NCBI GenBank assembly: GCA_016927565.1
Contig: JAFGMK010000024.1
Span: forward strand, 6,105-70,104
DNA length: 64,000 bases
Source: Minisyncoccota bacterium
GTDB lineage: Bacteria > Patescibacteriota > Microgenomatia > PFEM01 > JAFGMK01
Reading direction: 5' to 3'
A program made the translations under genes and the position numbers. Position 1 is the stretch's first letter, and every line of letters begins with the position of its first letter. Below, piece by piece: positions 37,290 through 48,013 of the stretch. The notes below the pieces were generated by a model. It saw only the letters and a program-made list of their open reading frames with translations. It searched no databases and was not told where the DNA came from.

Positions 37290-37362
37290 TGCGGGGTAGT
37301 GTACGGCGGCACGTGAGGCTCATAATCTCACAGACCGGGTTCAACTCCCGGCCCCGCAACCA
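37290..37362 (+). tRNA. tRNA with anticodon CAT (Met or Ile-lysidine type); CCA encoded
   Basis: Hand-folded. Acceptor stem TGCGGGG/CCCCGCA, U8, D-stem GTGT/GCAC, anticodon stem TGAGG/TCTCA with loop CTCATAA, T-stem CCGGG/CCCGG with loop TTCAACT, discriminator A, then CCA. It lacks the three G-C pairs of an initiator. Confidence 0.65.
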
Positions 37363-37563: not shown

Positions 37564-37635
37564 GCTAGGGTAGCTCAGGGGTAGAGCAATCGTTTCATAA
37601 GCGATGGGTCGCCGGTTCAAATCCGGCCCCTAGCA
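37564..37635 (+). tRNA. tRNA with anticodon CAT (Met/Ile2 type); no encoded CCA
   Basis: GCTAGGG-TA-GCTC-AGGGGTA-GAGC-A-ATCGT-TTCATAA-GCGAT-GGGTC-GCCGG-TTCAAAT-CCGGC-CCCTAGC-A. A canonical 72-nt cloverleaf. G1-C72 paired and no GGG/CCC in the anticodon stem, so an elongator type. Confidence 0.8.
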
Positions 37636-37647
37636 CAATAATTACTT

Positions 37648-39150: not shown

Positions 39151-39194
39151 CTAAATCAAAATCTCCGAAGCCTAACCTTATCCAAAATACCCTG

Positions 39195-39266
39195 TGCGCC
39201 TGCTTGGATTCGAACCAAGAACCCTCGACTTATAAGATCGATGCTCTACCGTTGAGCTACAGGCGC
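39195..39266 (-). tRNA. tRNA-Ile with anticodon UAU (reads AUA)
   Basis: Minus-strand fold: GCGCCTG-TA-GCTC-AACGGTA-GAGC-A-TCGAT-CTTATAA-GTCGA-GGGTT-CTTGG-TTCGAAT-CCAAG-CAGGCGC-A. Anticodon loop C-T-[TAT]-A-A. No encoded CCA. Confidence 0.8.
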
Positions 39267-39295: not shown

Positions 39296-41629
39296 TTATA
39301 ACTTGGCCCGCTGGGCAATTTCTGATTCCACTAACTGCCTGTCCTGACCGTATTTCAACCGGGAAAGATTCCTTACCATTTCCCCTACCCTGGGATCTTT
39401 CATCTTTTCCAAAGCAGCCATGTCCCGATAAAGATCAACTGAAAAAGGCGGCACCGGCTCATTCCTGACAATCGTTTTCATATAAATGTGGTAGCGCTCG
39501 ATATTCAGAAGATCGTCTTCAGCAAAAGTGGGCTGGAATTCATGAGTTAAATAAGAAGCATCATTCACTCCCACCCGAAAAGACATAATCGTTCCCACAT
39601 TTCCGAAAATGGCATTTTTAACCTCCTCATCCATCTGCCCGATAAATTGATTGGCAACGGTTAAATTCAGCCGGTATTTCCGGGCTTCTGAGAGAATCTG
39701 GGCAAAATCCGGAGTGGCAAAGTTTTGAAATTCATCAACATAAAGATAAAAATCGCGCCGCTGGTCCTCAGGAATATCCGCCCGGCTCATCGCCGCCATT
39801 AACAATTTCGGCACAAAAACCAAACCCAAAAAAGAACTGTTCTCTTCGCCGATCTTCCCTTTAGCCAAATTAATTATCAAAATCTTCCCTTCGTCCATTG
39901 CCCGCCGGAAATCAAAAGAAGACTTTGATTGGCCGATAATATTCCGCATTGTTTTATTGGTAACAAAGCGGCCGAATTTAGATACGATGTAGTCAAGCAC
40001 TTCGCTTTTATGAAAGTCTGAAGTCTGGGCAATCTGGTCGGTCCAGTAACGTTTAACCATCGGGTCTTTAACCTTAGGCAAAAGCTCCTGAACATATTTA
40101 GCATCAGTCAGGCAACGGACAATTTCGACGAAGCTGCTTCCCTCCTCACACATGACTGTCAACATGGCATTCCTGATCGCATGCTCAAACCGGGGACCGA
40201 TAATGCCGGTTTTATAAGGGTCATAAAGTTTGTACATTAAATTTATAATCGCCCCGGTAACAAAATGCTTTTGCTCTTCATTCTGAACTTCAAGCAAGTT
40301 AAAACCCATCGGCCTTTCGGTATCCGAGGGGTCAAAGTAAATTACATCCTCGGCTCTTTCCGGCGGAATAAATTCAAGCAGACTTTCCGCCAGATCATGA
40401 GGATCAATTAAGCAAATTCCTTTCCCGGCCCGAATGTCTTGAAGAATCATATCTTTTAAAAGCTCGGTTTTGCCGACCCCGGTTTTACCAATCACATAAA
40501 CATGGCGGCGGCGGTCCTTATCGCTCAGATAGACCGGCCGGCTCATTCCCCGGTAAGTCGATTTGCCGACATAAAGACCGCTCTTGGGAATCTGAACCGG
40601 CGCCGGTGCTGTTTTGGCATAAAGCCAGTGAATGTGAGGCGTTTCGACTGTTTTATTGGGAAAGTGAAAAATGGTTGCCAGCTCTTCTGAAGAAAGAATT
40701 GAGTGGCCCATTCCCATATAGACCAGCGGCATATAGCGATAAATAAAATCAATCATAAATAATTTTTTAAACCAGATCTTACTGGTTTTAAGCCCGTTCA
40801 GATTAGAGGAAAACTGCTCAAAAGAAGACTTGATGTTTTCCAGATGAGCTTCAGCCTGTTCCTCGGTGGTTGAAGAAACCACAATCCGAATCAAAGTCTC
40901 AAAACCGGGCTTACTGGTTTTACTTTCGATTGCTTCCAAAGTTTTAGCATCGACTTTAAAAGAAGCTTTTTCAACATCTGCCTCTTCCTTTTTTGTTTTG
41001 GAGATAAATGACTTGCCCGCACTCTGCCAACTGCTTCCGGCCGGAACTACATTAATTTGAATTACCGCCCCTTCTCCTTCACTCATCTTCGCCAGTGAAG
41101 TAGTAATCAGGGAAAGCGGGTCAGTTGCTAATTCTCGGTAAGACTTAAGAGGATAATAAGAATCTTTACTCAACTGAAGCTGGGCAAAGGCAACCTTCCC
41201 TTCCTGAGAAAAAATATTGTATTCAGAAACTTTCTTAAGTTCGGCAGACGGATAAGCCCCGTAAATTTGCTTTTCAATAAAATCCTGAAGATCCTTAGGA
41301 ACCGAAATGTAAAAGCGGATATCTTCGGGCCGGGCAACAATTTCAAAACAAAGGTGATTGGGAGGCTTAAGGTTTAAAAAATCGCTGCTTGTTTTAATTG
41401 AATTCAAAGACGCAAAAAACTGTTCGGCAGTATCGATTTTAGTTTCATTATTAAAAGGAACTGCCACCTGCAAAAGAACCGACTGAAGAGATCTTTCTTC
41501 CCGCTTCTGATTTCTTTTCGTCAGCAGGAAAAAATAAAGCCCAATCACCAATCCCAAAAATAAAAAGACCAGAACACCGATGACGGCAAGGAAAAGACCC
41601 AGATTGCCCGTAAGGGCTTCCATATTCAT
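39296..41629 (-). CDS. membrane-anchored P-loop NTPase of the FtsK/HerA/VirB4-TraG type (conjugation/type-IV-secretion-like ATPase)
   Basis: A single N-terminal TM helix, then about 340 aa of unknown domain, then Walker A YVIGKTGVGKT followed by ICLIDPHDL (like the HerA/TraD -DPKGE- segment) and Walker B LYVDEFQNF; 777 aa. Confidence 0.55.
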   Translation of the reverse strand: MNMEALTGNLGLFLAVIGVLVFLFLGLVIGLYFFLLTKRNQKREERSLQSVLLQVAVPFNNETKIDTAEQFFASLNSIKTSSDFLNLKPPNHLCFEIVARPEDIRFYISVPKDLQDFIEKQIYGAYPSAELKKVSEYNIFSQEGKVAFAQLQLSKDSYYPLKSYRELATDPLSLITTSLAKMSEGEGAVIQINVVPAGSSWQSAGKSFISKTKKEEADVEKASFKVDAKTLEAIESKTSKPGFETLIRIVVSSTTEEQAEAHLENIKSSFEQFSSNLNGLKTSKIWFKKLFMIDFIYRYMPLVYMGMGHSILSSEELATIFHFPNKTVETPHIHWLYAKTAPAPVQIPKSGLYVGKSTYRGMSRPVYLSDKDRRRHVYVIGKTGVGKTELLKDMILQDIRAGKGICLIDPHDLAESLLEFIPPERAEDVIYFDPSDTERPMGFNLLEVQNEEQKHFVTGAIINLMYKLYDPYKTGIIGPRFEHAIRNAMLTVMCEEGSSFVEIVRCLTDAKYVQELLPKVKDPMVKRYWTDQIAQTSDFHKSEVLDYIVSKFGRFVTNKTMRNIIGQSKSSFDFRRAMDEGKILIINLAKGKIGEENSSFLGLVFVPKLLMAAMSRADIPEDQRRDFYLYVDEFQNFATPDFAQILSEARKYRLNLTVANQFIGQMDEEVKNAIFGNVGTIMSFRVGVNDASYLTHEFQPTFAEDDLLNIERYHIYMKTIVRNEPVPPFSVDLYRDMAALEKMKDPRVGEMVRNLSRLKYGQDRQLVESEIAQRAKL

Positions 41630-41640
41630 AATAACTTATC

Positions 41641-42186
41641 TCAATTCTCGTAATCTTCTGCCGAGGAGTTCGTTGCCATCCCCGGCTTATTTTTGTAAAC
41701 TTGATTTTGATCGGCCCGGACCGCTTGGACTCGAGGTTGATTTTTAGTCTTTTTTTGTTTCGGGGGTTTTCTGTTAAAAACACCCCCCATCAACCTAATC
41801 AGACGGATACACCATTCCGCCAGCCAGCGGATAGAATCAACCATTTTATGAGTCGTTCCTTCTCTGATTTCCTCTTCGGTCAAAGGCAAAACAATTCCTG
41901 TCGCGTCATCACCGGAATTGCTGACTAAAACCTGGCCCGTTTGATCATCCGTCACCGACTGAGTAAGCCGGGTCGCCGCCCCGGGAACCGGCTGGGCCAT
42001 CTCAATTTCTCTGGGAATTTCCGGAATATCAAGCCTCTCAACTACCGGAAATTGATTCAGCCCCTTGCCGAAAACTCCTTCCACAACCTTTTGCCTCTCT
42101 TCAAGTGAAACTGGTTTTGTTTCTTTTTCTTTGTCTGTCAACGTCACAGTAAAATGAAGAACCTGATCCTGATTGTTCTTCTCCAA
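41641..42186 (-). CDS. hypothetical protein (181 aa), with an acidic N-terminus and a basic KKTKNQ tail
   Basis: ORF only. Transcribed first in the same minus-strand run, with its stop 12 nt from the ATPase start. Confidence 0.45.
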   Translation of the reverse strand: MEKNNQDQVLHFTVTLTDKEKETKPVSLEERQKVVEGVFGKGLNQFPVVERLDIPEIPREIEMAQPVPGAATRLTQSVTDDQTGQVLVSNSGDDATGIVLPLTEEEIREGTTHKMVDSIRWLAEWCIRLIRLMGGVFNRKPPKQKKTKNQPRVQAVRADQNQVYKNKPGMATNSSAEDYEN

Positions 42187-42424: not shown

Positions 42425-43216
42425 TCAAATAAAATCCCCGCCCACTCCCCGCAATTTAGTTTTTGGGATCATTTCTGAAATCATTTTTTTAAAAGCTTTC
42501 AACTGGGAAACAGCAAAAGGCTCTATTTCATTGAATCCAGGGTCAAGGCAGTTTTTGGGTTGAAAAGACTGAAGAACCCAGGAGAAATCTCTAATTTTCC
42601 GACCGCAACCGGCAAACAGGTTTTTTAAATCCCGAGCCATTGTCAGCAAAACCTTTTCATCATGGATGGTCGGTACTATGGTTGTCCGGAATTCAAACGG
42701 CAAGCCAGAGTCTATTATCAACCGCATAGATTCCTTAATTCCAGCGGCTAACGATCCCGGATCGTCTGCAGATTTCGATCCTGGATCGGATTGCCCCCCG
42801 GATTTAATTCCAACTACATTTTCATAATCCGAAAATGTAGTCTTATAATCCATCGCCCAAAAATCTACCAGTTTTGCCTCAAGCAATTTTTTGATGACCT
42901 CAGGCCGACTACCGTTAGTTTCTATCATTATCTTAAAACCCAAAGCTTTAACCTTAGTTGAAAACCCCAAAAGGTCTGGCTGGAGAGTCGGTTCACCACC
43001 GGTAACCGCCACACCATCAATCCATTTGCTCCGCCGCTTCAAATCCGTCAAAACAATCTTCTCGCTGTGATGTTTCAGCTTTTTACTATTGATTTTCACC
43101 AGGTCGCGATTGTGGCAAAACGGACAGGCAAAATTGCAGCCCGGGACAAAGATCACTGAAGCAATCTTGGTCGGCCACTCGATCAGAGAGGTTTTTAAAT
43201 AACCGGCAATTTTCAT
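42425..43216 (-). CDS. nrdG: anaerobic ribonucleotide reductase activating protein (radical SAM, NrdG/PflA family) carrying a 20-codon in-frame insertion
   Basis: CNFACPFCHN radical-SAM cluster motif near the N-terminus. An internal GIK-SGGQSDPGSKSADDPGSLAAG-IKESM segment is encoded by a copy of the GATCCCGGATC repeat element. Confidence 0.8.
   Translation of the reverse strand: MKIAGYLKTSLIEWPTKIASVIFVPGCNFACPFCHNRDLVKINSKKLKHHSEKIVLTDLKRRSKWIDGVAVTGGEPTLQPDLLGFSTKVKALGFKIMIETNGSRPEVIKKLLEAKLVDFWAMDYKTTFSDYENVVGIKSGGQSDPGSKSADDPGSLAAGIKESMRLIIDSGLPFEFRTTIVPTIHDEKVLLTMARDLKNLFAGCGRKIRDFSWVLQSFQPKNCLDPGFNEIEPFAVSQLKAFKKMISEMIPKTKLRGVGGDFI
42748..42808. repeat. GATCCCGGATC-family element, copy B, inside the nrdG coding sequence and flanked by an 8-bp direct repeat TTAATTCC
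   Basis: ctaaCGATCCCGGATCGtctgcagatttCGATCCTGGATCGgattgccccccggattt. TTAATTCC occurs at 42736-42743 and 42804-42811. Confidence 0.7.
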
Positions 43217-43301: not shown

Positions 43302-43562
43302 TTAAAGCTTATCAAGAATCGCCGACTCTTTCGGCACTTTTCCTCGCCATTCGGCCGCTATCTTGCCTTTATCATCAACCAGAATCATCGTCGGTGTCGC
43401 CATTACCTGATAAAAAGCCCCCTCGGCCATTCCCTCAATTTTATCAACATCAAACCATTCAATTTGAATCCTGACCTGGCTTTTATTTTCCAAATCCCTG
43501 CCCAATTTTTTAGCCGGAGGACATTTAGGACAATTATTTCTGGTAAAAATTTTTAAGATCAT
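43302..43562 (-). CDS. nrdH: NrdH/glutaredoxin-like small redoxin
   Basis: 86 aa. A thioredoxin fold with CPKCP redox motif. Located between nrdD and nrdG. Confidence 0.65.
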   Translation of the reverse strand: MILKIFTRNNCPKCPPAKKLGRDLENKSQVRIQIEWFDVDKIEGMAEGAFYQVMATPTMILVDDKGKIAAEWRGKVPKESAILDKL

Positions 43563-43579: not shown

Positions 43580-45733
43580 TTAAAACCGACCCTCATTTTT
43601 GTGACGATCGTTAAGCTCTCCTATCTTACCCTTATTCCAGCGGCTGATACGGGAATAAAAACCGGTCACTCGCGTCACCCCGTCAACTTCTTCCGAGCCG
43701 CACTTAGGACAAGCATCATGAAGGCCCCGTGTTGTCGCCAGACAACAATCACAAATTGTAAATTCCGGCGAAAAGGCAATCAGACCGTTCTGGGTTTGTT
43801 CAAAGGTTTTTTTGACAAAACTCGCAATCGAAACCGGATCCGGGTTCTGTTCCCCCAACCAGAGATGACTAATGGCTCCGGCATCAATTAAAGGATGAAA
43901 AAGGCCTTCTTTGGTCACTCTTTCAATCGGATCAATATTTTCGGAAATATTCAATTGGGTCGAGTTGGTATAGTAAATATAATCATCTTCCCATCGTCCC
44001 TTAATCACTTTCCGTGATTGATCAGGATAAAAACGCTTATCCAGTTTGGCAAAGCGATAAGTCAGTCCTTCAGCCGGAGTCTGTTCCAAAACATAATCCA
44101 TCTTATCCCGCCGGCTCATTTCTTTGGCCTTCTTATTGATGGCCGCCACAATCTTCAAACCCAATTTTAAAGCCTCGTTACTTTCATGCAGCTGTTGTCC
44201 CAGACAATACTCAACTGTTTCATTCACGCCGAAAATACCTACCAGAAACTTGGCTTTTTTAAAGCGGTAATACATTTCAGGATCATCCTTTTGCCGGGTT
44301 GTCAGCGAGCCGAGAGGACCCTGAAGCCCCATCTCAAGAAGTCGTTTAATAAACCGTCTTTTCTGTTGATGGGCTTTGGCTAAAAGTTCCATTCCCTTGT
44401 CAATTTCTTTAAACAGTTTTTCCGATTTACCCTTAGCTTTGTAAGCCATCCGAGGCAGATTCAAGGAAACGTTTTGCATTGCTGAATGGCGCATCTGCCA
44501 GGGTTTTTTGGCTTCCTCGAGATCTTTTTTATTCAGATTGAAAGAAAGCCGGCAGCACTCGGAAATCCGGGCTGTTTTTCCCCGATCCAAAACAAAATAA
44601 GTGTTGCCTCTTTCAGCTGCCACCCGCGAAGCCAGCCGGAGAAACTCCTTATGACCCGGAGTGGCCCAAAATTTTTCCGTAATGTGCAAATTCGGCTTCG
44701 GCCAGAAAAAGGGCCGGCCGGCCCCGTCTCCCTCCAGGTAAATTTCAAAAATGGCTCTTAAGAAATCCTGTGATTCTTTCTCGTAGTCCTGATAATTTTT
44801 GCCGGTATAAACTCCTCCGGGGCCAATGGCCGGAGTTTTGGCAAAATGATCCGGTACTTCCCAGTAAAGGTTAATATCTGAAAAAATTGCTTGCCCCCCC
44901 CGAGCTACATTCTGCATATTAAACTCAAATAAAAGCATTTGAGCCAGCTGCCTTATCTCGGCAAAGGGCATTCCCACCAAATAAGGCGCCATAAAAAGAT
45001 TGACCGCATCAAAACCAATTGCCCCGGCAAAATGAACCTGGAGCATCGCTGCCAGCTTAATAATCTGCAGTATTAAAACCTGAGCATGCTTTGCCGGTTT
45101 GGCCACTGCCAATGACGAGGCAATGTCTAAACCATACTTCTTAACATATTCAATCGATTGACCACAGCAATAAGGCCGATCAATGAAATCGAGATCATGA
45201 AGATGTAAATCCCCCCGAGCATGAGCCTCAGCCACTTCTTGAGAAAAAACTCGACGGAGAGCGTATTCTTTTTTGATATTTCGAGCCAAAGAGAGATTGG
45301 TAGCTTCGGTATTATGAGGAACATTGGCATTAATCCGATTTTGTTCCGTCAACATTTTATGGACATCATAAATCGGGACTCCTAAACGAACGTGCTTATA
45401 GTAATATTTTTCCAAGCCTCGAGATAATAATTCAGCATTAGTCATCTCCCGAATTAAATTGGTAGAAACATGTTTAACTTTGGAGTCAACGATTTGTTTT
45501 TCCACTTCCCGGGCAATCCTCATTGCCAGATATTCATCCATCCCGGTTTCAATAATCAGCCTTTTGGCAATTTGGGTCACATCCCATTTTTTTAAAGCCT
45601 CATCAGAAGTAGAAACAAAAAACATCACATCAGTGGCCTGATGTTTTTGGGCATTAGCCAGGTATTTAGCCTGCTTTCTGGTTAAGCCGCTGCCGTTTTT
45701 GCCATTTTGATATTTATCTATTTCGCTAGGCAT
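43580..45733 (-). CDS. nrdD: anaerobic ribonucleoside-triphosphate reductase (class III large subunit), with an N-terminal ATP-cone-like region
   Basis: HLHDLDF motif, a C-terminal zinc ribbon (CDCC...CPKC), and the glycyl-radical motif TRVTGFY; 717 aa. Confidence 0.85.
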   Translation of the reverse strand: MPSEIDKYQNGKNGSGLTRKQAKYLANAQKHQATDVMFFVSTSDEALKKWDVTQIAKRLIIETGMDEYLAMRIAREVEKQIVDSKVKHVSTNLIREMTNAELLSRGLEKYYYKHVRLGVPIYDVHKMLTEQNRINANVPHNTEATNLSLARNIKKEYALRRVFSQEVAEAHARGDLHLHDLDFIDRPYCCGQSIEYVKKYGLDIASSLAVAKPAKHAQVLILQIIKLAAMLQVHFAGAIGFDAVNLFMAPYLVGMPFAEIRQLAQMLLFEFNMQNVARGGQAIFSDINLYWEVPDHFAKTPAIGPGGVYTGKNYQDYEKESQDFLRAIFEIYLEGDGAGRPFFWPKPNLHITEKFWATPGHKEFLRLASRVAAERGNTYFVLDRGKTARISECCRLSFNLNKKDLEEAKKPWQMRHSAMQNVSLNLPRMAYKAKGKSEKLFKEIDKGMELLAKAHQQKRRFIKRLLEMGLQGPLGSLTTRQKDDPEMYYRFKKAKFLVGIFGVNETVEYCLGQQLHESNEALKLGLKIVAAINKKAKEMSRRDKMDYVLEQTPAEGLTYRFAKLDKRFYPDQSRKVIKGRWEDDYIYYTNSTQLNISENIDPIERVTKEGLFHPLIDAGAISHLWLGEQNPDPVSIASFVKKTFEQTQNGLIAFSPEFTICDCCLATTRGLHDACPKCGSEEVDGVTRVTGFYSRISRWNKGKIGELNDRHKNEGRF

Positions 45734-45774
45734 ATTTTGGTTTGGACAGGGTCTGAGCCCTCATCATTTCCCAA

Positions 45775-47745
45775 TCAAATATTTTTATTTCGATGCCGGT
45801 CCCTGAGTTCCGCCTTCTTGCCCCGCCCCCATGAACTGGTAAAGGTATAATAGCCGGTAATCCTCGTAATTCCATCTACCTTTCTGGAATGACAATAAGG
45901 ACAACTCCCCAATAATCCCCGAGCTAAACGCCGGCACTTTAAGCACAAGGTAAATTCGGGTGAAAGGGCAACTTGGGTATTTTGGGTCCGGTTAAAAGTC
46001 TTTTTAATTAACCGGCCGACAGAAGCAGGACTCGGCTCGCGCTCCCCTAACCAAAGATGGGTAATATTACCGCCTTCAATTAGAGGATGGAAAAGGCCTT
46101 CCTTTTCAATTCTGTCTAAGGGATCAATCTCGGCATCAACATCTAAATGAGTTGAGTTGGTATAATAAACTGAACCGGATTCAGGATCACCGTGAACAAT
46201 CTTAAGGGCTTGTTTGGGAAACCGGCTCAAATCAAGCCGGGCAAAACGATAGCAGGTTGACTCAGCCGGATCCTGTTCAAGAATGATTTTTAACCGGCTT
46301 TTTTTGCTTTCCTGATCGCAAAGATATTTCATGAAAGCCACTATTTTCAGACCAAATTTCAGCGCCTGATCGCTCTCATGCATCTTCTGGCCCAAATGCG
46401 CCCGAACACAGTCGCCCACCCCCAAGACACCGACCAAATAGGCCATTTTGGTAAAACGCAAATATGATTCTTTTTCACCCTCCTGTTTAACCGTCAACAA
46501 TCCCAAAGGGCCGGTTTCTCGCCGATCCAAGAGTTTTTTTAAGAAGGCTCCTTTTTGTTTATGAGCCTCGAAAACCAGTTGCATCCTTTTTCTGATCAAT
46601 TCAAAAAGCTTTTTTTCATTTCCTTTGGCCTGATAAGCAATCCTAGGCAAATTAAGAGAAATATAAGGAGCTGCGGAAAAACGCATCCGCCAAGGTTTTT
46701 TAGTGTCTTTTAAATCCTCACTGGAAAGAGTGAAAGAGACCCGGCAGCATTCAGAAATCTTGGCAGTTTTTCCCCGATCCAGCATAAAGTAAGGATTACC
46801 TGTTTTGGTCGCCACTTCGCAAACATGATTCAAAAACCGACTATGCCCCGGAGTGGCCCAAAACTTGTCGGTAATATGGAGATTGGGCTTGGGCCAAAAA
46901 AAAGGCGAACCCTGGCTGTCGCCTTTTTTATAAACGGAAAAGATTTGCCAAACAAAGCTCTGAGCTTCTTTTTCATAATCACCATAAACCTTGCCGGTAT
47001 ATTGACCCCGGGGACCAATAGCCGGAACCTTTTCAAAATGAGCCGGCACCTCCCAATAAAGATTGAGATCAGAAAAAATCGGCTGACCGCCATGAGGTCC
47101 GATAGTTTGATTAAATTGATGAATCAACTTTTGCGCCGCCTGATAGATTTCACTATCGGAGAGGCCTGTCAAATAAGGCGCCAAAAATAAATTAACCGCG
47201 TCCCAGCCGATCGCCCCGCCAAAATTAGCCCTGAGAGCCAAAGAAAACCGGTAAAGATGATCCAAAGCTGAGTCAATGTGAGCGGCCGGCCTGGTCGCCG
47301 CAAAACTGGCATAACGGTTAAGACCGTATTTTTTAACATACTCAACGCTCTGGCCGGAACAATAAGGCCGGTCAATAAAACCTAATTTATGAAGATGCAA
47401 ATCTCCCCGCCGGTGAGCCCGAGCCACTGATTTAGAATAAACCTTATTTAGGGCATACTCTTTTTTAACAAACTCGGACAGAGTAAAACTTGTTCCCTCA
47501 GGAGTGTTGGGCATATTGGCATCGCTCCGGCTACCTTCTTTCGCGATGACAGTCTCAATCTCCTCTAAAGAAAGAGAGACTCTTCCGTCTTCACCTGTAT
47601 CCTCAAAATGGAAAAGGCCATTCCCGTTACTGTTTTGGGAATGATTGTCTTTTTTCTGAACTTTAGGACCGGGTAATATCCGGGCCAATTGCCGGGAAAT
47701 TCCCAAAGAAAAATCGGTCACATCAAGTCGTTTTTTTTGAACCAT
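45775..47745 (-). CDS. nrdD: second class III ribonucleotide reductase paralog (no ATP-cone)
   Basis: HLHKLGF, a zinc ribbon (CLKC...CPYC), and the Gly-radical motif TRITGYY; 656 aa. Collinear with the upstream copy across most of its length. Confidence 0.8.
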   Translation of the reverse strand: MVQKKRLDVTDFSLGISRQLARILPGPKVQKKDNHSQNSNGNGLFHFEDTGEDGRVSLSLEEIETVIAKEGSRSDANMPNTPEGTSFTLSEFVKKEYALNKVYSKSVARAHRRGDLHLHKLGFIDRPYCSGQSVEYVKKYGLNRYASFAATRPAAHIDSALDHLYRFSLALRANFGGAIGWDAVNLFLAPYLTGLSDSEIYQAAQKLIHQFNQTIGPHGGQPIFSDLNLYWEVPAHFEKVPAIGPRGQYTGKVYGDYEKEAQSFVWQIFSVYKKGDSQGSPFFWPKPNLHITDKFWATPGHSRFLNHVCEVATKTGNPYFMLDRGKTAKISECCRVSFTLSSEDLKDTKKPWRMRFSAAPYISLNLPRIAYQAKGNEKKLFELIRKRMQLVFEAHKQKGAFLKKLLDRRETGPLGLLTVKQEGEKESYLRFTKMAYLVGVLGVGDCVRAHLGQKMHESDQALKFGLKIVAFMKYLCDQESKKSRLKIILEQDPAESTCYRFARLDLSRFPKQALKIVHGDPESGSVYYTNSTHLDVDAEIDPLDRIEKEGLFHPLIEGGNITHLWLGEREPSPASVGRLIKKTFNRTQNTQVALSPEFTLCLKCRRLARGLLGSCPYCHSRKVDGITRITGYYTFTSSWGRGKKAELRDRHRNKNI

Positions 47746-48013
47746 AATCTCTTCCTATAGAACCGAACCAACAAATTTCAAACAAAAAGTCTCAGGTTTT
47801 TTTAGAAAGTGGTTTTGCCCGCCTTTTCCGAAAGTTAAAAACCTCTAAACCGGATTTTGTTTATAGATTACCCAGTTTAGTTTATGAGCTGAGTTATCAT
47901 ATCAATTGTTAAAGAAAGCCTGTCAAGCAGAAATAAATGAATCAGAAGATATCAGAAACCGGAAATTAAAAATGAAAAACGGGTTTCAAAAAAGGGGCAA
48001 ATCTAAACAAAGG

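What the first reader, a model, noticed from the sequence alone, without database searches (positions are those of the whole stretch)
43580..47745. Tandem class III ribonucleotide reductase paralogs, one with and one without an ATP-cone
Both have HLH(D/K)L(D/G)F, a C-terminal zinc ribbon and the glycyl-radical motif (TRVTGFY / TRITGYY), and are collinear over most of their length. The first has an N-terminal ATP-cone-like region. The second instead has a low-complexity N-terminus (QNSNGNGLFHFEDTGEDG). A single NrdG and NrdH follow. Duplicated NrdD with different allosteric architecture suggests subfunctionalisation, for example different regulation or substrate range, or one copy decaying.
Basis: partly seen in the sequence, partly recalled or inferred. 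Interest (0 to 1): 0.55.

Follow-up and report, generated by a model that had tools for sequence, protein, structure and literature searches.

The report
Conserved tandem anaerobic ribonucleotide reductase pair
This small-genome (Patescibacteria) bacterium and its relatives keep two intact, diverged copies of the anaerobic enzyme that makes DNA building blocks, next to each other in one operon. One copy has lost its regulatory domain and changed its substrate-reading loop, so the two probably divide the work or act as a mixed pair.

Summary
On the minus strand, two complete NrdD genes sit in tandem: B (45775-47745, 656 aa) then A (43580-45733, 717 aa). They are 53% identical. A small thioredoxin-fold gene and one NrdG activase follow.

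Neither copy is decaying, and this is not an assembly artefact. The order B, A, Trx, NrdG recurs in all 11 relatives' loci inspected where sequence allowed, behind a conserved promoter. All catalytic Cys, Gly and Zn-Cys residues are invariant in 55 B-type and 32 A-type proteins. Synonymous sites are saturated while dN is only 0.10-0.39.

Outgroup-rooted trees place A and B as sisters (94/100), which points to one old duplication inside Patescibacteria.

A keeps an ATP-cone fold but lacks the canonical basic nucleotide-binding residues. B keeps only the hairpin remnant of the cone. B also carries clade-fixed changes in the NxN flap (DAN), the triphosphate motif (HLHK), the loop-2 arginine (H or I) and a near-universal Gln (R172).

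Best reading: two active subunits that have specialised in regulation and substrate recognition. Whether they work as two homodimers or as an A·B heterodimer is unresolved. I found no description in the searchable literature. I rate it a new variant of a known kind, of moderate interest.

The parts
47896..47926 (-). Promoter-like element upstream of B: TTGACA, 19 nt, TATGAT. It probably drives the whole operon.
   Evidence: The sequence was read. The same TTGACA(G)-N19-(TATGAT / GATAAT / TAATAT / TATAGT) arrangement lies upstream of B in L001, L002, L082, L084, L085 and L087. L086 has the TTGACAG box but no clear second hexamer. The generic scan did not list this element because it only allows spacers of 16-18 nt. 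Function is inferred.
45775..47745 (-). NrdD paralog B, 656 aa. A class III RNR catalytic subunit without the helical ATP-cone. First gene of the operon.
   Evidence: Pfam NRDD E = 1.3e-131. TIGR02487 392 bits against a cut-off of 326. The AF2 model has pTM 0.83 with a confident core. It belongs to a monophyletic clade of 55 clusters, nearly all labelled Patescibacteria.
47698..47724 (-). B residues 8-16, DVTDFSLGI. A conserved remnant of the first strand of the ancestral N-terminal domain, followed by an N/G-rich low-complexity linker.
   Evidence: T10 is invariant and D8, D11 and F12 are at least 90% conserved across 35 B sequences. The segment aligns with the 'TDLALFVRTS' motif of full-length relatives. 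The predicted model is disordered over residues 1-52.
47515..47523 (-). B flap motif D75-A-N77, in place of the family's NxN flap.
   Evidence: D75 occurs in 55/55 B sequences. The same position is N in 159/159 single-copy relatives and in 18/25 distant outgroups. In P. copri NrdD the first Asn H-bonds the substrate gamma-phosphate (PMC11226230).
47386..47397 (-). B triphosphate motif H117-L-H119-K120, where the canonical form is HxHD.
   Evidence: K120 occurs in 55/55 B sequences against D in 159/159 single-copy relatives. H117 and H119 are relaxed within clade B (H37 K13; H38 Q17). In T. maritima NrdD the HYHD motif is defined as the triphosphate motif, and its Asp holds a water in the bend of the phosphates (PMC4493059).
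47074..47106 (-). B specificity loop 2, T214-IGPHGGQPI-F224.
   Evidence: B has T214, P217, H/I218 and P222. A and the single-copy relatives have Q, A, R/K and A at these positions. The R-x-x-Q-x-x-aromatic spacing matches Tm R221/Q224/Y227, which read the substrate base (PMC4493059). That mapping is by pattern and is inferred. The model has low pLDDT over 216-219.
46741..46752 (-). B finger-loop motif E332-C333-C334-R335. It carries the thiyl-radical Cys and an adjacent third Cys.
   Evidence: All four residues are invariant in 55/55 B sequences.
45853..45945 (-). B C-terminal glycyl-radical domain: Zn ribbon C601, C604, C615, C618 and radical Gly631 (TRITGYY).
   Evidence: All four Cys, R628 and G631 are invariant in 55/55 B sequences. 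Coordinates were checked.
43580..45733 (-). NrdD paralog A, 717 aa. A class III RNR catalytic subunit with an N-terminal ATP-cone-like domain and canonical NAN flap, HLHD motif and loop-2 Arg.
   Evidence: Pfam NRDD E = 1.7e-143. TIGR02487 434 bits against a cut-off of 326. It belongs to a monophyletic clade of 32 proteins that contains all 20 known partners of B genes. Motifs were checked.
45392..45637 (-). A residues 33-114, the ATP-cone-like domain. The fold is retained. By manual alignment, the canonical basic nucleotide-binding residues are replaced.
   Evidence: Pfam ATP-cone scores 24.1 bits, E = 5.5e-5, on the isolated domain against a cut-off of 25.8. Of 26 family N-termini, 25 hit the model. 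In the AF2 model the helices at residues 52-114 are mostly above pLDDT 90 (block means 87-97), but the hairpin at 32-47 is below 50. The best Foldseek PDB hits are mostly ATP-cones (NrdR, NrdB 5olk, S. thermophilus and P. copri NrdD), with probability about 1, E = 0.09-2 and rmsd about 2 A over about 70 columns. I aligned the domain by hand to the NrdR cone of L090. That alignment gives K-K to T-S, R to A and K to Q, and is inferred.
43661..43753 (-). A Zn ribbon (C661, C664, C675, C678) and radical Gly691 (TRVTGFY).
   Evidence: These residues are invariant in 32/32 A-clade sequences. Coordinates were checked. The residue after the Gly is Phe in 32/32 A sequences. It is mostly Tyr in B (49/55) and in the single-copy relatives (132/159).
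43302..43562 (-). An 86-aa thioredoxin-fold protein with a CPKC motif. Presumed disulfide reductant for the NrdDs.
   Evidence: Pfam Thioredoxin_3 E = 1.3e-7. Its NCBIfam hits are all below cut-off and none is an NrdH model. It is conserved after A in all loci long enough to reach it. Its role is inferred.
42425..43216 (-). NrdG, the radical-SAM activase. A single copy serves both NrdDs.
   Evidence: TIGR02495 NrdG2 scores 177.5 bits against a cut-off of 131. It also matches Pfam Radical_SAM and Fer4_12. One copy follows the pair in every locus long enough to reach it.

Best explanation
The locus is a single operon: promoter, nrdD-B, nrdD-A, trx-like, nrdG. It encodes two catalytically competent class III (glycyl-radical) ribonucleotide reductase subunits. 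They arose from one old duplication inside the Patescibacteria (Microgenomates-type) lineage, and selection has kept both ever since.

Both subunits are presumably activated by the one NrdG. Because both carry the adjacent Cys-Cys finger-loop motif, both are presumably re-reduced by the co-encoded thioredoxin-fold protein rather than by formate.

A keeps the ancestral layout. It has an ATP-cone-like N-domain, an NAN flap, an HLHD triphosphate motif and the loop-2 Arg.

B is the specialised copy:
- It lost the helical cone, so it has no a-site.
- Its substrate lid changed from NxN to DAN.
- Its triphosphate motif changed from HxHD to HxHK.
- It lost the loop-2 Arg that reads the substrate base.
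- A near-universal Gln at the end of helix alphaA became Arg.

The pair therefore most likely divides the labour of dNTP supply. B would carry a different (or no) overall activity switch and a different effector-to-substrate rule or phosphate-binding mode than A.

Shown here: gene integrity, conservation, co-occurrence, common origin, and which sites differ. Inferred: enzymatic activity, the reductant, and what the substitutions do. Not resolved: whether the two act as separate homodimers or together.
For: Family membership of both copies above curated cut-offs.

Catalytic residues:
- C129, E332-C333-C334-R335, four Zn-Cys and G631 are invariant in the B clade, and their equivalents are invariant in the A clade.

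Purifying selection:
- pS is 0.71-0.86 (saturated) while dN is 0.10-0.39 for both genes in 28 orthologue pairs.

Co-occurrence:
- B then A then Trx then NrdG is seen in the window and in 11 further locus records (L001, L002, L003, L082/L083, L085, L086, L087, L088/L089, L090, L091), with synteny of the flanking genes.
- A further 18 B/A cluster pairs, plus the window's own pair, share the same longest-contig length.
- Three A-clade genes without a listed partner all turned out to have a B gene upstream.

Operon structure:
- A conserved promoter-like element lies upstream of B only.
- The B-A gap ranges from 41 nt down to a 4-nt overlap.

Common origin:
- A+B are monophyletic in 94/100 bootstraps with 25 outgroups.
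- F284W and F296W are shared derived states.

B-specific fixed or relaxed sites in elements of known function:
- Flap N to D, HxHD to HxHK, loop-2 R to H/I, and Q172R, which is Q in 23/25 outgroups.
- The roles of these elements come from PMC4493059 and PMC11226230.

ATP-cone:
- A has the ATP-cone fold.
- B keeps only the hairpin remnant.
Against: There is no biochemical evidence.

- Within the wider NrdD family the Asp position of HxHD is not universal. N, M, T, Q and K occur in distant representatives, and most CPR A-type partners (23 of 25 in subclade A-sub1) also have HxHK. The D-to-K change alone is therefore not diagnostic of a new function.
- Clade-B fixed deviations are not statistically concentrated in the alphaA/alphaB/loop-2 region (3 of 16, P = 0.48).
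- The mapping of loop-2 and effector residues onto the T. maritima and P. copri structures is by motif spacing, not by a structure superposition.
- A's cone lacks the canonical basic residues by manual alignment. The contrast 'regulated versus unregulated' may therefore be smaller than it looks.
- NJ trees with long branches can join A and B artefactually.
Confidence: 0.6

Rival explanations
1. A and B form an A·B heterodimer. The half-of-sites asymmetry seen in homodimeric NrdD, with one active and one inactive monomer coupled through loop 2 and the flap, would then be fixed into two different polypeptides. The cone-bearing A and the cone-less B would play different roles within one enzyme.
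For: - Co-occurrence is strict, the gene order is fixed, and stop/start overlaps of B and A occur in several genomes. This pattern is typical of subunits of one complex.
- One activase and one reductant serve both.
- Both copies are retained in very small genomes.
- In P. copri NrdD only one monomer is active at a time. Loop 2 of the active monomer forces the other loop 2 into a conformation that clashes with its NxN flap (PMC11226230). The flap and loop 2 are among B's fixed changes, together with loss of the cone.
- The s-site is built from both chains (PMC4493059).
- B keeps the conserved hairpin remnant of the cone 'roof', the part that mediates cone-cone contacts in P. copri NrdD.
- An independent tandem NrdD duplication in WOR-1/Saganbacteria changed one copy mostly in the helices and loop that line the dimer interface and s-site.
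Against: - Both subunits keep every catalytic residue. Known paralog heterodimers of RNR (yeast Rnr2-Rnr4, cited from my own knowledge) have one inactive partner.
- No interface co-variation could be tested here, because no model coordinates or multimer prediction were available.
- Tight operon packing is common in these genomes regardless of complex formation.
Confidence: 0.25
2. B has changed its substrate class or phosphate recognition. For example, it might prefer nucleoside diphosphates or bind triphosphates without the usual water or cation, while A remains a standard NTP reductase.
For: - The gamma-phosphate contacts described for class III RNRs (the first flap Asn, the first two positions of the motif, and the Asp, whose backbone amide makes the contact) are changed or relaxed in clade B. 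These are N75D (55/55), D120K (55/55), H117 (H37 K13) and H119 (H38 Q17).
Against: - The window's own B keeps both His residues.
- A Lys in place of Asp could simply neutralise the triphosphate directly.
- Other NrdDs vary at this position, and the A-type partners of most relatives also have HxHK.
- All class III RNRs characterised so far use NTPs (PMC9176816).
Confidence: 0.1
3. The two are redundant, or B is a decaying copy or pseudo-enzyme.
For: - B evolves somewhat faster than A (mean pairwise distance 0.45 against 0.38 over the same genome pairs).
- B shows 22 relaxed sites against 5 in A.
- RNR paralogy through transfer and loss is common, and redundancy is the recommended null hypothesis (PMC3019208).
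Against: - Catalytic residues are invariant across 55 B sequences.
- Synonymous sites are saturated with low dN.
- The gene is retained, in the same position, in every locus examined across a deep lineage with minimal genomes.
Confidence: 0.03
4. The duplication is an assembly or binning artefact.
For: The window comes from a metagenome-assembled genome.
Against: - The copies are only 53% identical at the protein level.
- The same arrangement and flanking synteny occur in NCBI, JGI, ENA and Logan assemblies of different samples.
Confidence: 0.01

Closest known systems
Thioredoxin-dependent class III RNR (NrdD2 type, e.g. Neisseria bacilliformis and Thermotoga maritima NrdD)
   Same: - The NRDD fold.
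- The glycyl-radical C-terminus with a Zn ribbon.
- The conserved Tyr-Cys on the bottom face.
- Two adjacent Cys in the xCCR finger-loop motif.
- A thioredoxin-fold gene and an NrdG in the operon (definitions from PMC4493059).
   Different: - Sequence identity to the solved structures is low. PDB hits reach only E = 1e-14 to 1e-29.
- The motif is ECCR rather than SCCR.
- The defining active-site Glu could not be mapped.
- There are two catalytic genes in tandem instead of one.
ATP-cone-containing NrdD of Prevotella copri (PDB 8p23) and Streptococcus thermophilus (9d3x)
   Same: - Domain order: cone, linker, NxN flap, barrel, glycyl-radical domain.
- A has the NAN flap, the HxHD motif and the loop-2 R..Q.
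- The predicted N-domain of A superposes on these cones.
   Different: - By manual alignment, A lacks the Lys/Arg residues that bind ATP or dATP (K7, R8, R11 in P. copri).
- B lacks the helical cone and has DAN, HxHK and no loop-2 Arg.
- The P. copri enzyme was assayed with formate and dithionite (PMC11226230). Here the CC motif and the Trx gene suggest a disulfide route.
Single-copy NrdD of Desulfobacterota, Syntrophorhabdus and related groups (the sister group in my trees)
   Same: - 53-58% identical to both A and B.
- The same operon tail: (Trx) then NrdG.
- The same N-terminal 'TDLALFVRTS' cone variant.
   Different: - One gene only.
- All canonical motifs are strictly conserved (N75, D120, Q172, Q214, R218 in 157-159 of 159).
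Tandem NrdD pair of candidate division WOR-1 / Saganbacteria (L035, L054)
   Same: - Two NrdD genes head to tail, followed by a Trx-like gene.
- One copy is conservative and the other diverges at Q172, Q213/Q214, the flap and helices alphaA/alphaB.
   Different: - This is an independent duplication inside the single-copy group.
- Both copies keep the full N-terminal domain, HLHD and NAN.
- The divergent copy is the downstream one.
Paralogous RNR subunit pairs in class I (e.g. yeast Rnr2-Rnr4 heterodimer; class Ia plus Ib in one genome)
   Same: Duplicated RNR subunits are retained and specialised. Paralogy is frequent in RNRdb (PMC3019208).
   Different: - These are radical-generating subunits, or whole separate operons under different regulation.
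- They are not two glycyl-radical catalytic subunits sharing one activase in one operon.
- In Rnr2-Rnr4 one partner is catalytically dead (from my own knowledge), whereas here both are intact.

Membership tests
Class III ribonucleotide reductase catalytic subunit (NrdD) | Match to the curated family models above their cut-offs | tested here: met
   TIGR02487: A scores 434.3 bits and B 392.4 bits against a cut-off of 326.35. Pfam PF13597: E = 1.7e-143 and 1.3e-131.
Class III ribonucleotide reductase catalytic subunit (NrdD) | C-terminal glycyl-radical motif (R-x-x-G-aromatic) preceded by a four-Cys Zn ribbon | tested here: met
   A has C661, C664, C675, C678 and G691. B has C601, C604, C615, C618 and G631. 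These are invariant in 32 and 55 homologs respectively.
Class III ribonucleotide reductase catalytic subunit (NrdD) | Finger-loop Cys (thiyl radical) and the conserved bottom-face Cys | tested here: met
   ECCR and PYC are present in both copies. C129, C333 and C334 and their equivalents are invariant.
Class III ribonucleotide reductase catalytic subunit (NrdD) | Substrate-binding motifs: NxN flap and HxHD triphosphate motif | tested here: inconclusive
   A meets both (NAN, HLHD). B has DAN and HLHK, fixed across its clade. The consequences for substrate binding are unknown.
Class III ribonucleotide reductase catalytic subunit (NrdD) | Dedicated radical-SAM activase NrdG encoded nearby | tested here: met
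   ORF 42425-43216 scores 177.5 bits on TIGR02495 against a cut-off of 131.15.
Class III ribonucleotide reductase catalytic subunit (NrdD) | Glycyl-radical formation and NTP reduction in vitro | not testable with these tools
   This needs anaerobic biochemistry.
NrdD2 subtype (thioredoxin-dependent; Wei et al. 2014, as summarised in PMC4493059) | A third Cys in the active site, adjacent to the radical Cys | tested here: met
   C333-C334 in B and C393-C394 in A are invariant.
NrdD2 subtype (thioredoxin-dependent; Wei et al. 2014, as summarised in PMC4493059) | A conserved active-site Glu, which distinguishes NrdD2 from NrdD3 | tested here: inconclusive
   The primary paper was not available, so the position could not be mapped. 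Conserved Glu residues do exist (E332 before the CC, and E495 in PAE), but their equivalence to the defining Glu was not established.
NrdD2 subtype (thioredoxin-dependent; Wei et al. 2014, as summarised in PMC4493059) | Use of thioredoxin instead of formate as reductant | not testable with these tools
   The only evidence is indirect: a thioredoxin-fold CPKC protein sits in the operon.
ATP-cone domain (PF03477), tested on the N-terminus of A | Pfam model match at or above the gathering score | tested here: not met
   19.0 bits in the whole protein and 24.1 bits (E = 5.5e-5) for the isolated domain, against a cut-off of 25.8. It misses narrowly. Of 26 homologous N-termini, 25 hit the model at E <= 0.1, the best at 3e-8.
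ATP-cone domain (PF03477), tested on the N-terminus of A | Four-helix ATP-cone fold | tested here: met
   In the AF2 model the helices at 52-114 are mostly above pLDDT 90 (block means 87-97). The best Foldseek hits are mostly ATP-cones (NrdR, NrdB 5olk, NrdD 9dau and 8p23, NrdA 5im3), with probability 0.9-1.0 and rmsd 1.7-2.7 A. The E-values are weak (0.09-2). The beta-hairpin roof is not confidently modelled.
ATP-cone domain (PF03477), tested on the N-terminus of A | Basic residues that bind the ATP/dATP phosphates (K-R of the VxKRDG hairpin and later Lys/Arg; K7, R8, R11, R87, R91 in P. copri NrdD) | tested here: not met
   I aligned the segment by hand to the NrdR cone of L090, VVKKDGRIEDYSREKL. 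A reads FVSTSDEALKKWDVTQI, which gives K-K to T-S, R to A and K to Q. The single-copy relatives also have V-R-T-S. The alignment is manual, so this is an inference. Nucleotide binding is untested.
ATP-cone domain (PF03477), tested on the N-terminus of B | Presence of the domain | tested here: not met
   There is no Pfam hit. The N-terminal 52 residues are predicted disordered. Only the 'TDFxLGI' strand and an 'FHFxD' segment align with the ancestral hairpin.
NrdH redoxin, tested on the 86-aa protein | Match to NrdH or glutaredoxin-like family models | tested here: not met
   The best matches are Thioredoxin_3 and the MJ0307-family thioredoxin. The GrxA match has E = 1e-3. No NrdH model appears among the five NCBIfam matches.

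The most novel reading that the evidence does not exclude
The two gene products assemble into an obligate A·B heterodimeric class III ribonucleotide reductase. The active/inactive monomer asymmetry of NrdD dimers would be fixed genetically. One subunit (A) carries the cone-like regulatory domain and the canonical substrate site. The other (B) has a remodelled loop 2, flap and phosphate motif, and so a distinct catalytic or purely allosteric role. The independent tandem duplication in WOR-1/Saganbacteria would then be a second, younger instance of the same solution.
Probability: 0.2. Interest if true: 0.8.

Novelty: new variant of a known kind. Interest (0 to 1): 0.5.

Why it matters
Class III RNRs are described as homodimers of one catalytic subunit, regulated through an s-site and, in many, an ATP-cone. 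Here a whole lineage of bacteria with minimal genomes has kept two diverged catalytic subunits in one operon, with one activase and one reductant, for a very long time. That argues that a single NrdD is not sufficient for them.

The differences between the copies fall on elements that recent structures identify as the switchgear of the enzyme. These are the cone, the NxN flap, the triphosphate motif and loop 2.

The pair therefore offers two things:
- A natural experiment on how allosteric specificity and half-of-sites reactivity are encoded.
- Possibly the first heteromeric glycyl-radical RNR.

It also bears on how Patescibacteria, which depend on salvage and have few regulators, balance their dNTP pools.

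Tried and rejected
- A genome-collection scan with the single B protein found nothing. The repeat with an alignment returned mostly Desulfobacterota single-copy genes and only two B-type loci. I therefore traced co-occurrence mainly through exact-protein look-ups.
- A profile of the N-terminal domain against PDB sequences did not retrieve ATP-cones. It hit only designed helical repeats at E > 0.1. A fold comparison was needed instead.
- dN/dS as a ratio could not be computed, either between the paralogs or between orthologues, because synonymous sites are saturated. Only the qualitative conclusion of strong constraint stands.
- Clade-B fixed substitutions are not enriched in the alphaA/alphaB/loop-2 region (P = 0.48).
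- Clade B and the divergent WOR-1 copy share two changed sites, Q172 and Q214. By my own estimate from the counts, about 0.7 shared sites would be expected by chance, so I do not claim convergence. I did not test this formally.
- I could not place T. maritima Q161 and Q218 or P. copri N298 on these proteins with confidence. Gapless and gapped alignments differ by one or more residues. I therefore make no claim that Q172 is the effector-reading Gln.
- Rfam found no riboswitch or other RNA in or around the operon.
- No NrdR gene lies within the 64-kb window, although one relative has NrdR directly upstream of the pair.
- The apparently truncated A gene in L086 is a 100-N scaffold gap, not a biological truncation.
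- I considered a mosaic origin for the window's A, which is closer to the single-copy group in its first 180 residues. That pattern is equally explained by faster N-terminal change in the other A subclade, so I left it open.
- The generic promoter scan found no more sites than shuffled sequence gives, and it missed the conserved element because of that element's 19-nt spacer.

Full report
**What is there**

The minus strand of the window carries four consecutive genes:
- B: an NrdD of 656 aa at 45775-47745.
- A: a second NrdD of 717 aa at 43580-45733, starting 41 nt after B ends.
- An 86-aa thioredoxin-fold protein at 43302-43562.
- A radical-SAM activase of 263 aa at 42425-43216.

Both large proteins match Pfam NRDD (E = 1.3e-131 and 1.7e-143). 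Both exceed the curated cut-off of the NCBIfam NrdD equivalog (392 and 434 bits against 326). The activase exceeds the NrdG2 cut-off.

The small protein matches Thioredoxin_3 and MJ0307-type thioredoxin models, and no NrdH model appears among its matches. The two NrdDs are 53% identical over 600 residues with one gap.

The window is identical to a contig of a Candidatus Pacebacteria metagenome-assembled genome, a member of the Patescibacteria/CPR.

**Not an artefact and not decay**

At 53% identity the copies cannot come from a collapsed or duplicated assembly.

The same order, cone-less NrdD then about 700-aa NrdD then Trx-like then NrdG, appears in every relative's locus I could inspect. These are L001, L002, L003, L082/L083, L085, L086, L087, L088/L089, L090 and L091. 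They come from NCBI, JGI, ENA and Logan assemblies of different samples. The flanking synteny is usually the same: two PBPs, an Rce1-like gene and DUF5667 upstream, and a small ORF and a DUF8128/TraG-like ATPase downstream. L084 ends at the contig edge inside the second gene.

A further 18 B/A cluster pairs, and the window's own pair, share the same longest-contig length in the two homolog tables. Three A-type genes that had no listed partner all turned out to have a B-type gene directly upstream. The one apparently truncated A gene, in L086, is interrupted by 100 Ns of scaffolding.

In 35 to 55 B-type sequences the following residues are invariant: the bottom-face Cys (C129), the finger-loop E-C-C-R, the four Zn-ribbon Cys, R628 and the radical Gly631. 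The same holds for the 32 A-type sequences.

I made codon comparisons between eight genomes. Synonymous sites are at saturation (pS 0.71-0.86), while dN is 0.10-0.39 in both genes. Both genes are therefore under strong purifying selection, although no numerical ratio can be given.

**Operon signals**

A promoter-like element, TTGACA(G), 19 nt, then TATGAT or GATAAT, lies upstream of B in the window (47926-47896). It is found in six of the relatives' loci examined. I found no comparable conserved element between B and A.

The B-A spacing ranges from 41 nt in the window to a 4-nt stop/start overlap in L085, L088 and L090. Rfam finds no regulatory RNA here.

**Origin of the pair**

I built a neighbour-joining tree of 246 homologs. 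It resolves three groups:
- Clade B: 55 proteins, all cone-less, 620-685 aa.
- Clade A: 32 proteins, including all 20 known partners of B genes.
- A large group of single-copy NrdDs from Desulfobacterota, Syntrophorhabdus, Margulisbacteria/WOR-1 and others.

I then added 25 distant NrdD representatives as outgroups (29-42% identity). With these, A and B are sisters in 94 of 100 bootstraps, and each clade is monophyletic in 100 of 100.

Two shared derived residues support the same grouping independently of distances. These are F284W in the FFWPKP motif and F296W, where the outgroups have F or aliphatic residues. Long-branch attraction cannot be fully excluded with this method.

The simplest history is one duplication in an ancestor of these Patescibacteria, followed by vertical inheritance of the pair.

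A second, independent tandem NrdD duplication exists in candidate division WOR-1/Saganbacteria (L035, from a genome record whose title marks it as curated and complete, and L054). Both copies there fall inside the single-copy group.

**The N-termini**

Full-length relatives begin with '..TDLALFVRTSxEDIVxWDRxKI..', followed by four helices.

For A, this region scores 24.1 bits (E = 5.5e-5) against Pfam ATP-cone. That is just under the gathering score of 25.8. Of 26 homologous N-termini, 25 hit the model. An AF2 model of A residues 1-116 gives mostly confident helices at 52-114 (block means 87-97) but an unconfident hairpin at 32-47. The best Foldseek hits in the PDB are mostly ATP-cones from NrdR, NrdB, NrdA and NrdD. 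Probability is near 1 and rmsd about 2 Å, though E-values are weak because the domain is small. A therefore has an ATP-cone fold.

I aligned A by hand to a canonical cone from the same lineage, the NrdR of L090 (VVKKDGRIEDYSREKL). The basic residues that bind nucleotide phosphates in canonical cones are K7, R8 and R11 in P. copri NrdD (PMC11226230). In A these positions are Thr, Ser, Ala and Gln. Whether A still senses ATP or dATP is therefore doubtful and remains untested.

B retains only a conserved 'D-x-T-D-F-x-L-G-I' strand (T10 invariant), an N/G-rich linker and an 'FHFxDTGxDG' segment. These align with the two strands of the ancestral hairpin. About 75 residues of helices are gone. AF2 predicts B residues 1-52 as disordered, while the core is confident (pTM 0.83).

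**Differences in the catalytic core**

I compared residue frequencies in the three groups and in the outgroups. B carries clade-fixed changes in elements whose roles are known from structures:

1. The NxN flap over the substrate. In P. copri NrdD the first Asn of this flap H-bonds the gamma-phosphate. In B it is D-A-N (D75 in 55/55). The position is N in 159/159 single-copy relatives and in 18/25 outgroups.
2. The HxHD motif. The T. maritima structure paper defines it as the triphosphate-binding motif, and its Asp holds a water in the bend of the phosphates. In B it is HxHK (K120 in 55/55), and the two His residues are relaxed within the clade (H37 K13; H38 Q17).
3. Loop 2, which carries the specificity signal. 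In B it reads T-x-G/A-P-H/I-G-x-Q-P-x-F. In A and the relatives it reads Q-x-V-A-R/K-G-G-Q-A-x-F. The R-x-x-Q-x-x-aromatic spacing matches Tm R221/Q224/Y227, which contact the substrate base. B has therefore lost the loop-2 Arg in all members. This mapping is by pattern.
4. Q172 at the end of helix alphaA. It is Gln in 23/25 outgroups and in all A and single-copy sequences. It is Arg in all B sequences.
5. E210, invariant elsewhere, varies in B.

A is closer to the ancestral state, and in the window's subclade it keeps NAN, HLHD and R278. A-specific fixed changes are few: D182, R389, L651, Phe after the radical Gly, and usually C190.

One complication needs stating. The A clade has two subclades. 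The window's type (7 clusters) is canonical. The larger one (25 clusters) has an SSN flap, HxHK and QCCR. Flap and HxHD states thus co-vary across groups as N with D, S with K, and D with K. This suggests that the two positions act together around the gamma-phosphate. The Asp position also varies in distant NrdDs, so D-to-K alone is not unique.

**How it most likely works**

Shown:
- Two intact NrdD genes of common origin.
- Strict co-inheritance and likely co-transcription with one activase and one thioredoxin-fold protein.
- Fixed differences at the cone, flap, phosphate motif and loop 2.

Inferred:
- Both proteins are activated by NrdG to carry a glycyl radical and reduce ribonucleotides.
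- They use a Cys pair (the adjacent Cys-Cys of the NrdD2/NrdD3 types) that is re-reduced by the Trx-like protein.
- B, lacking an a-site and having a different loop 2, flap and phosphate site, follows different allosteric rules or has a different substrate preference from A.
- Together the two provide a balanced dNTP supply.

I give this general reading 0.6.

The main rival, at about 0.25, is an A·B heterodimer. NrdD dimers are intrinsically asymmetric. In P. copri NrdD only one monomer is active at a time. Loop 2 of the active monomer pushes the partner's loop 2 into a position that clashes with its NxN flap. The s-site is also built from both chains. B's changes sit in exactly these parts, and the genes are co-inherited and sometimes translationally coupled. 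Against the heterodimer, both subunits keep all catalytic residues, and I could not test the interface.

A narrower variant, at about 0.1, is that B has altered phosphate recognition, possibly a preference for NDPs. It rests on the change or relaxation of the described gamma-phosphate contacts.

**The WOR-1 pair as a comparison**

In L035 and L054 the downstream copy departs from otherwise at least 95% conserved columns at only 14-16 positions. By my reading of the position lists, 11-13 of these lie in helices alphaA and alphaB and in loop 2 (positions 151-172, 202-223), plus two in the flap. For substitutions identical in both genomes, 4 of 5 fall in that region (P = 0.0024).

Q172 and Q214 are changed there too. 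However, by my own estimate an overlap of two sites with clade B's 16 fixed changes is about what chance allows. Clade B's changes are not themselves enriched in that region (P = 0.48). I therefore note the parallel but do not claim convergence.

**Comparison with what is known**

The proteins are members of the class III RNR family by every sequence criterion tested. They resemble the thioredoxin-dependent NrdD2 type in the CC motif and operon content, but the defining active-site Glu could not be mapped because the primary paper was not available.

RNR paralogy is common, and redundancy is the recommended null hypothesis (PMC3019208). Here conservation argues against redundancy.

Full-text searches returned no paper combining NrdD with Patescibacteria, or 'candidate phyla radiation' with 'anaerobic ribonucleotide reductase'. 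Searches on NrdD paralogs and heterodimers listed nothing whose title or abstract describes such a pair, and I read only one of those papers. The library is incomplete, so this is absence of evidence only.

I classify the finding as a new variant of a known kind, with moderate interest (0.5). Interest would rise to about 0.8 if the heterodimer reading proved true.

Noticed in passing
L035:5707-9892 and L054:5686-9907: Candidate division WOR-1/Saganbacteria genomes carry an independent tandem duplication of NrdD. Both copies are full length with the cone-like domain, and a Trx-like gene follows. The downstream copy differs from the strongly conserved family consensus almost only in helices alphaA and alphaB, loop 2 and the flap. 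A related Saganbacteria genome (L028) has a single copy.
   Followed up: partly
L090:2667-3128: In one relative an NrdR gene (Zn-ribbon plus a canonical ATP-cone) sits directly upstream of the B-A-Trx-NrdG operon, behind its own TTGACA-N17-TATGAT element. No NrdR homolog lies within the 64-kb window (tblastn).
   Followed up: partly
window 47896-47926 and the equivalent positions in L001, L002, L082, L084, L085, L087: The conserved promoter-like element upstream of B has an unusually long and constant 19-nt spacer between TTGACA and the second hexamer. It is preceded by a conserved 'TTTTGAT(A/C)CA..TT' stretch. This may reflect promoter architecture in this lineage.
   Followed up: partly
window 47845-47880: An inverted repeat, CTAAACCGG-N18-CCAGTTTAG, lies in the roughly 140-nt leader between the promoter-like element and the B start codon. 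I did not notice it in the relatives' leaders, which I did not search specifically. Its function is unknown.
   Followed up: no
A-type partners in relatives (e.g. P0130, P0144, L082:7950-10067): Most A-type partners (25 of 32 clusters) differ from the window's A. They have an SSN flap, HLHK, QCCR and an N-terminus beginning 'VLDRxMNVRTS'. Across all groups the flap's first residue and the HxHD Asp position co-vary (N with D, S with K, D with K).
   Followed up: partly
proteins P0243-P0375: A large share of the diverse NrdD representatives are 1000-1700 aa long and match the query in two to four separate stretches. This is consistent with inteins inserted at conserved sites of NrdD.
   Followed up: no
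L085:8967-11609, L088:7091-7961, L091:8181-8759: In some relatives extra genes are embedded in or appended to the operon. They include a NUDIX hydrolase between A and Trx, a thymidylate-kinase-like gene and a CYTH-domain gene after NrdG, and DUF1653 and a cupin. This hints at a wider nucleotide-metabolism module.
   Followed up: no
window 39296-41629 and 41641-42186: A DUF8128/TraG-VirD4-like ATPase (777 aa), preceded by a small ORF, lies directly downstream of NrdG. The corresponding gene calls in L001, L082, L087 and L091 carry those Pfam families.
   Followed up: no
window 37290-37362, 37564-37636, 39194-39266: There are two tRNA-Met (CAT) genes about 200 nt apart, and a tRNA-Ile with anticodon TAT.
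   Followed up: no
window 1-64000: GC skew is negative in every 2-kb bin across the whole window (-0.08 to -0.30), and almost all long ORFs are on the minus strand. This is consistent with one replichore with strong strand bias.
   Followed up: no
window 42425-43216 (NrdG residues about 140-160): The activase carries a low-complexity insertion (GGQSDPGSKSADDPGS). That makes it 263 aa, against 220-255 aa in most relatives.
   Followed up: no
L003 (DATKWK010000039.1), P0189, P0138: Contigs that carry the Patescibacteria-type B-A pair, or close A-type relatives, are labelled Bathyarchaeia, Clostridia or Thermoplasmata in public records. The labels are probably binning errors.
   Followed up: no
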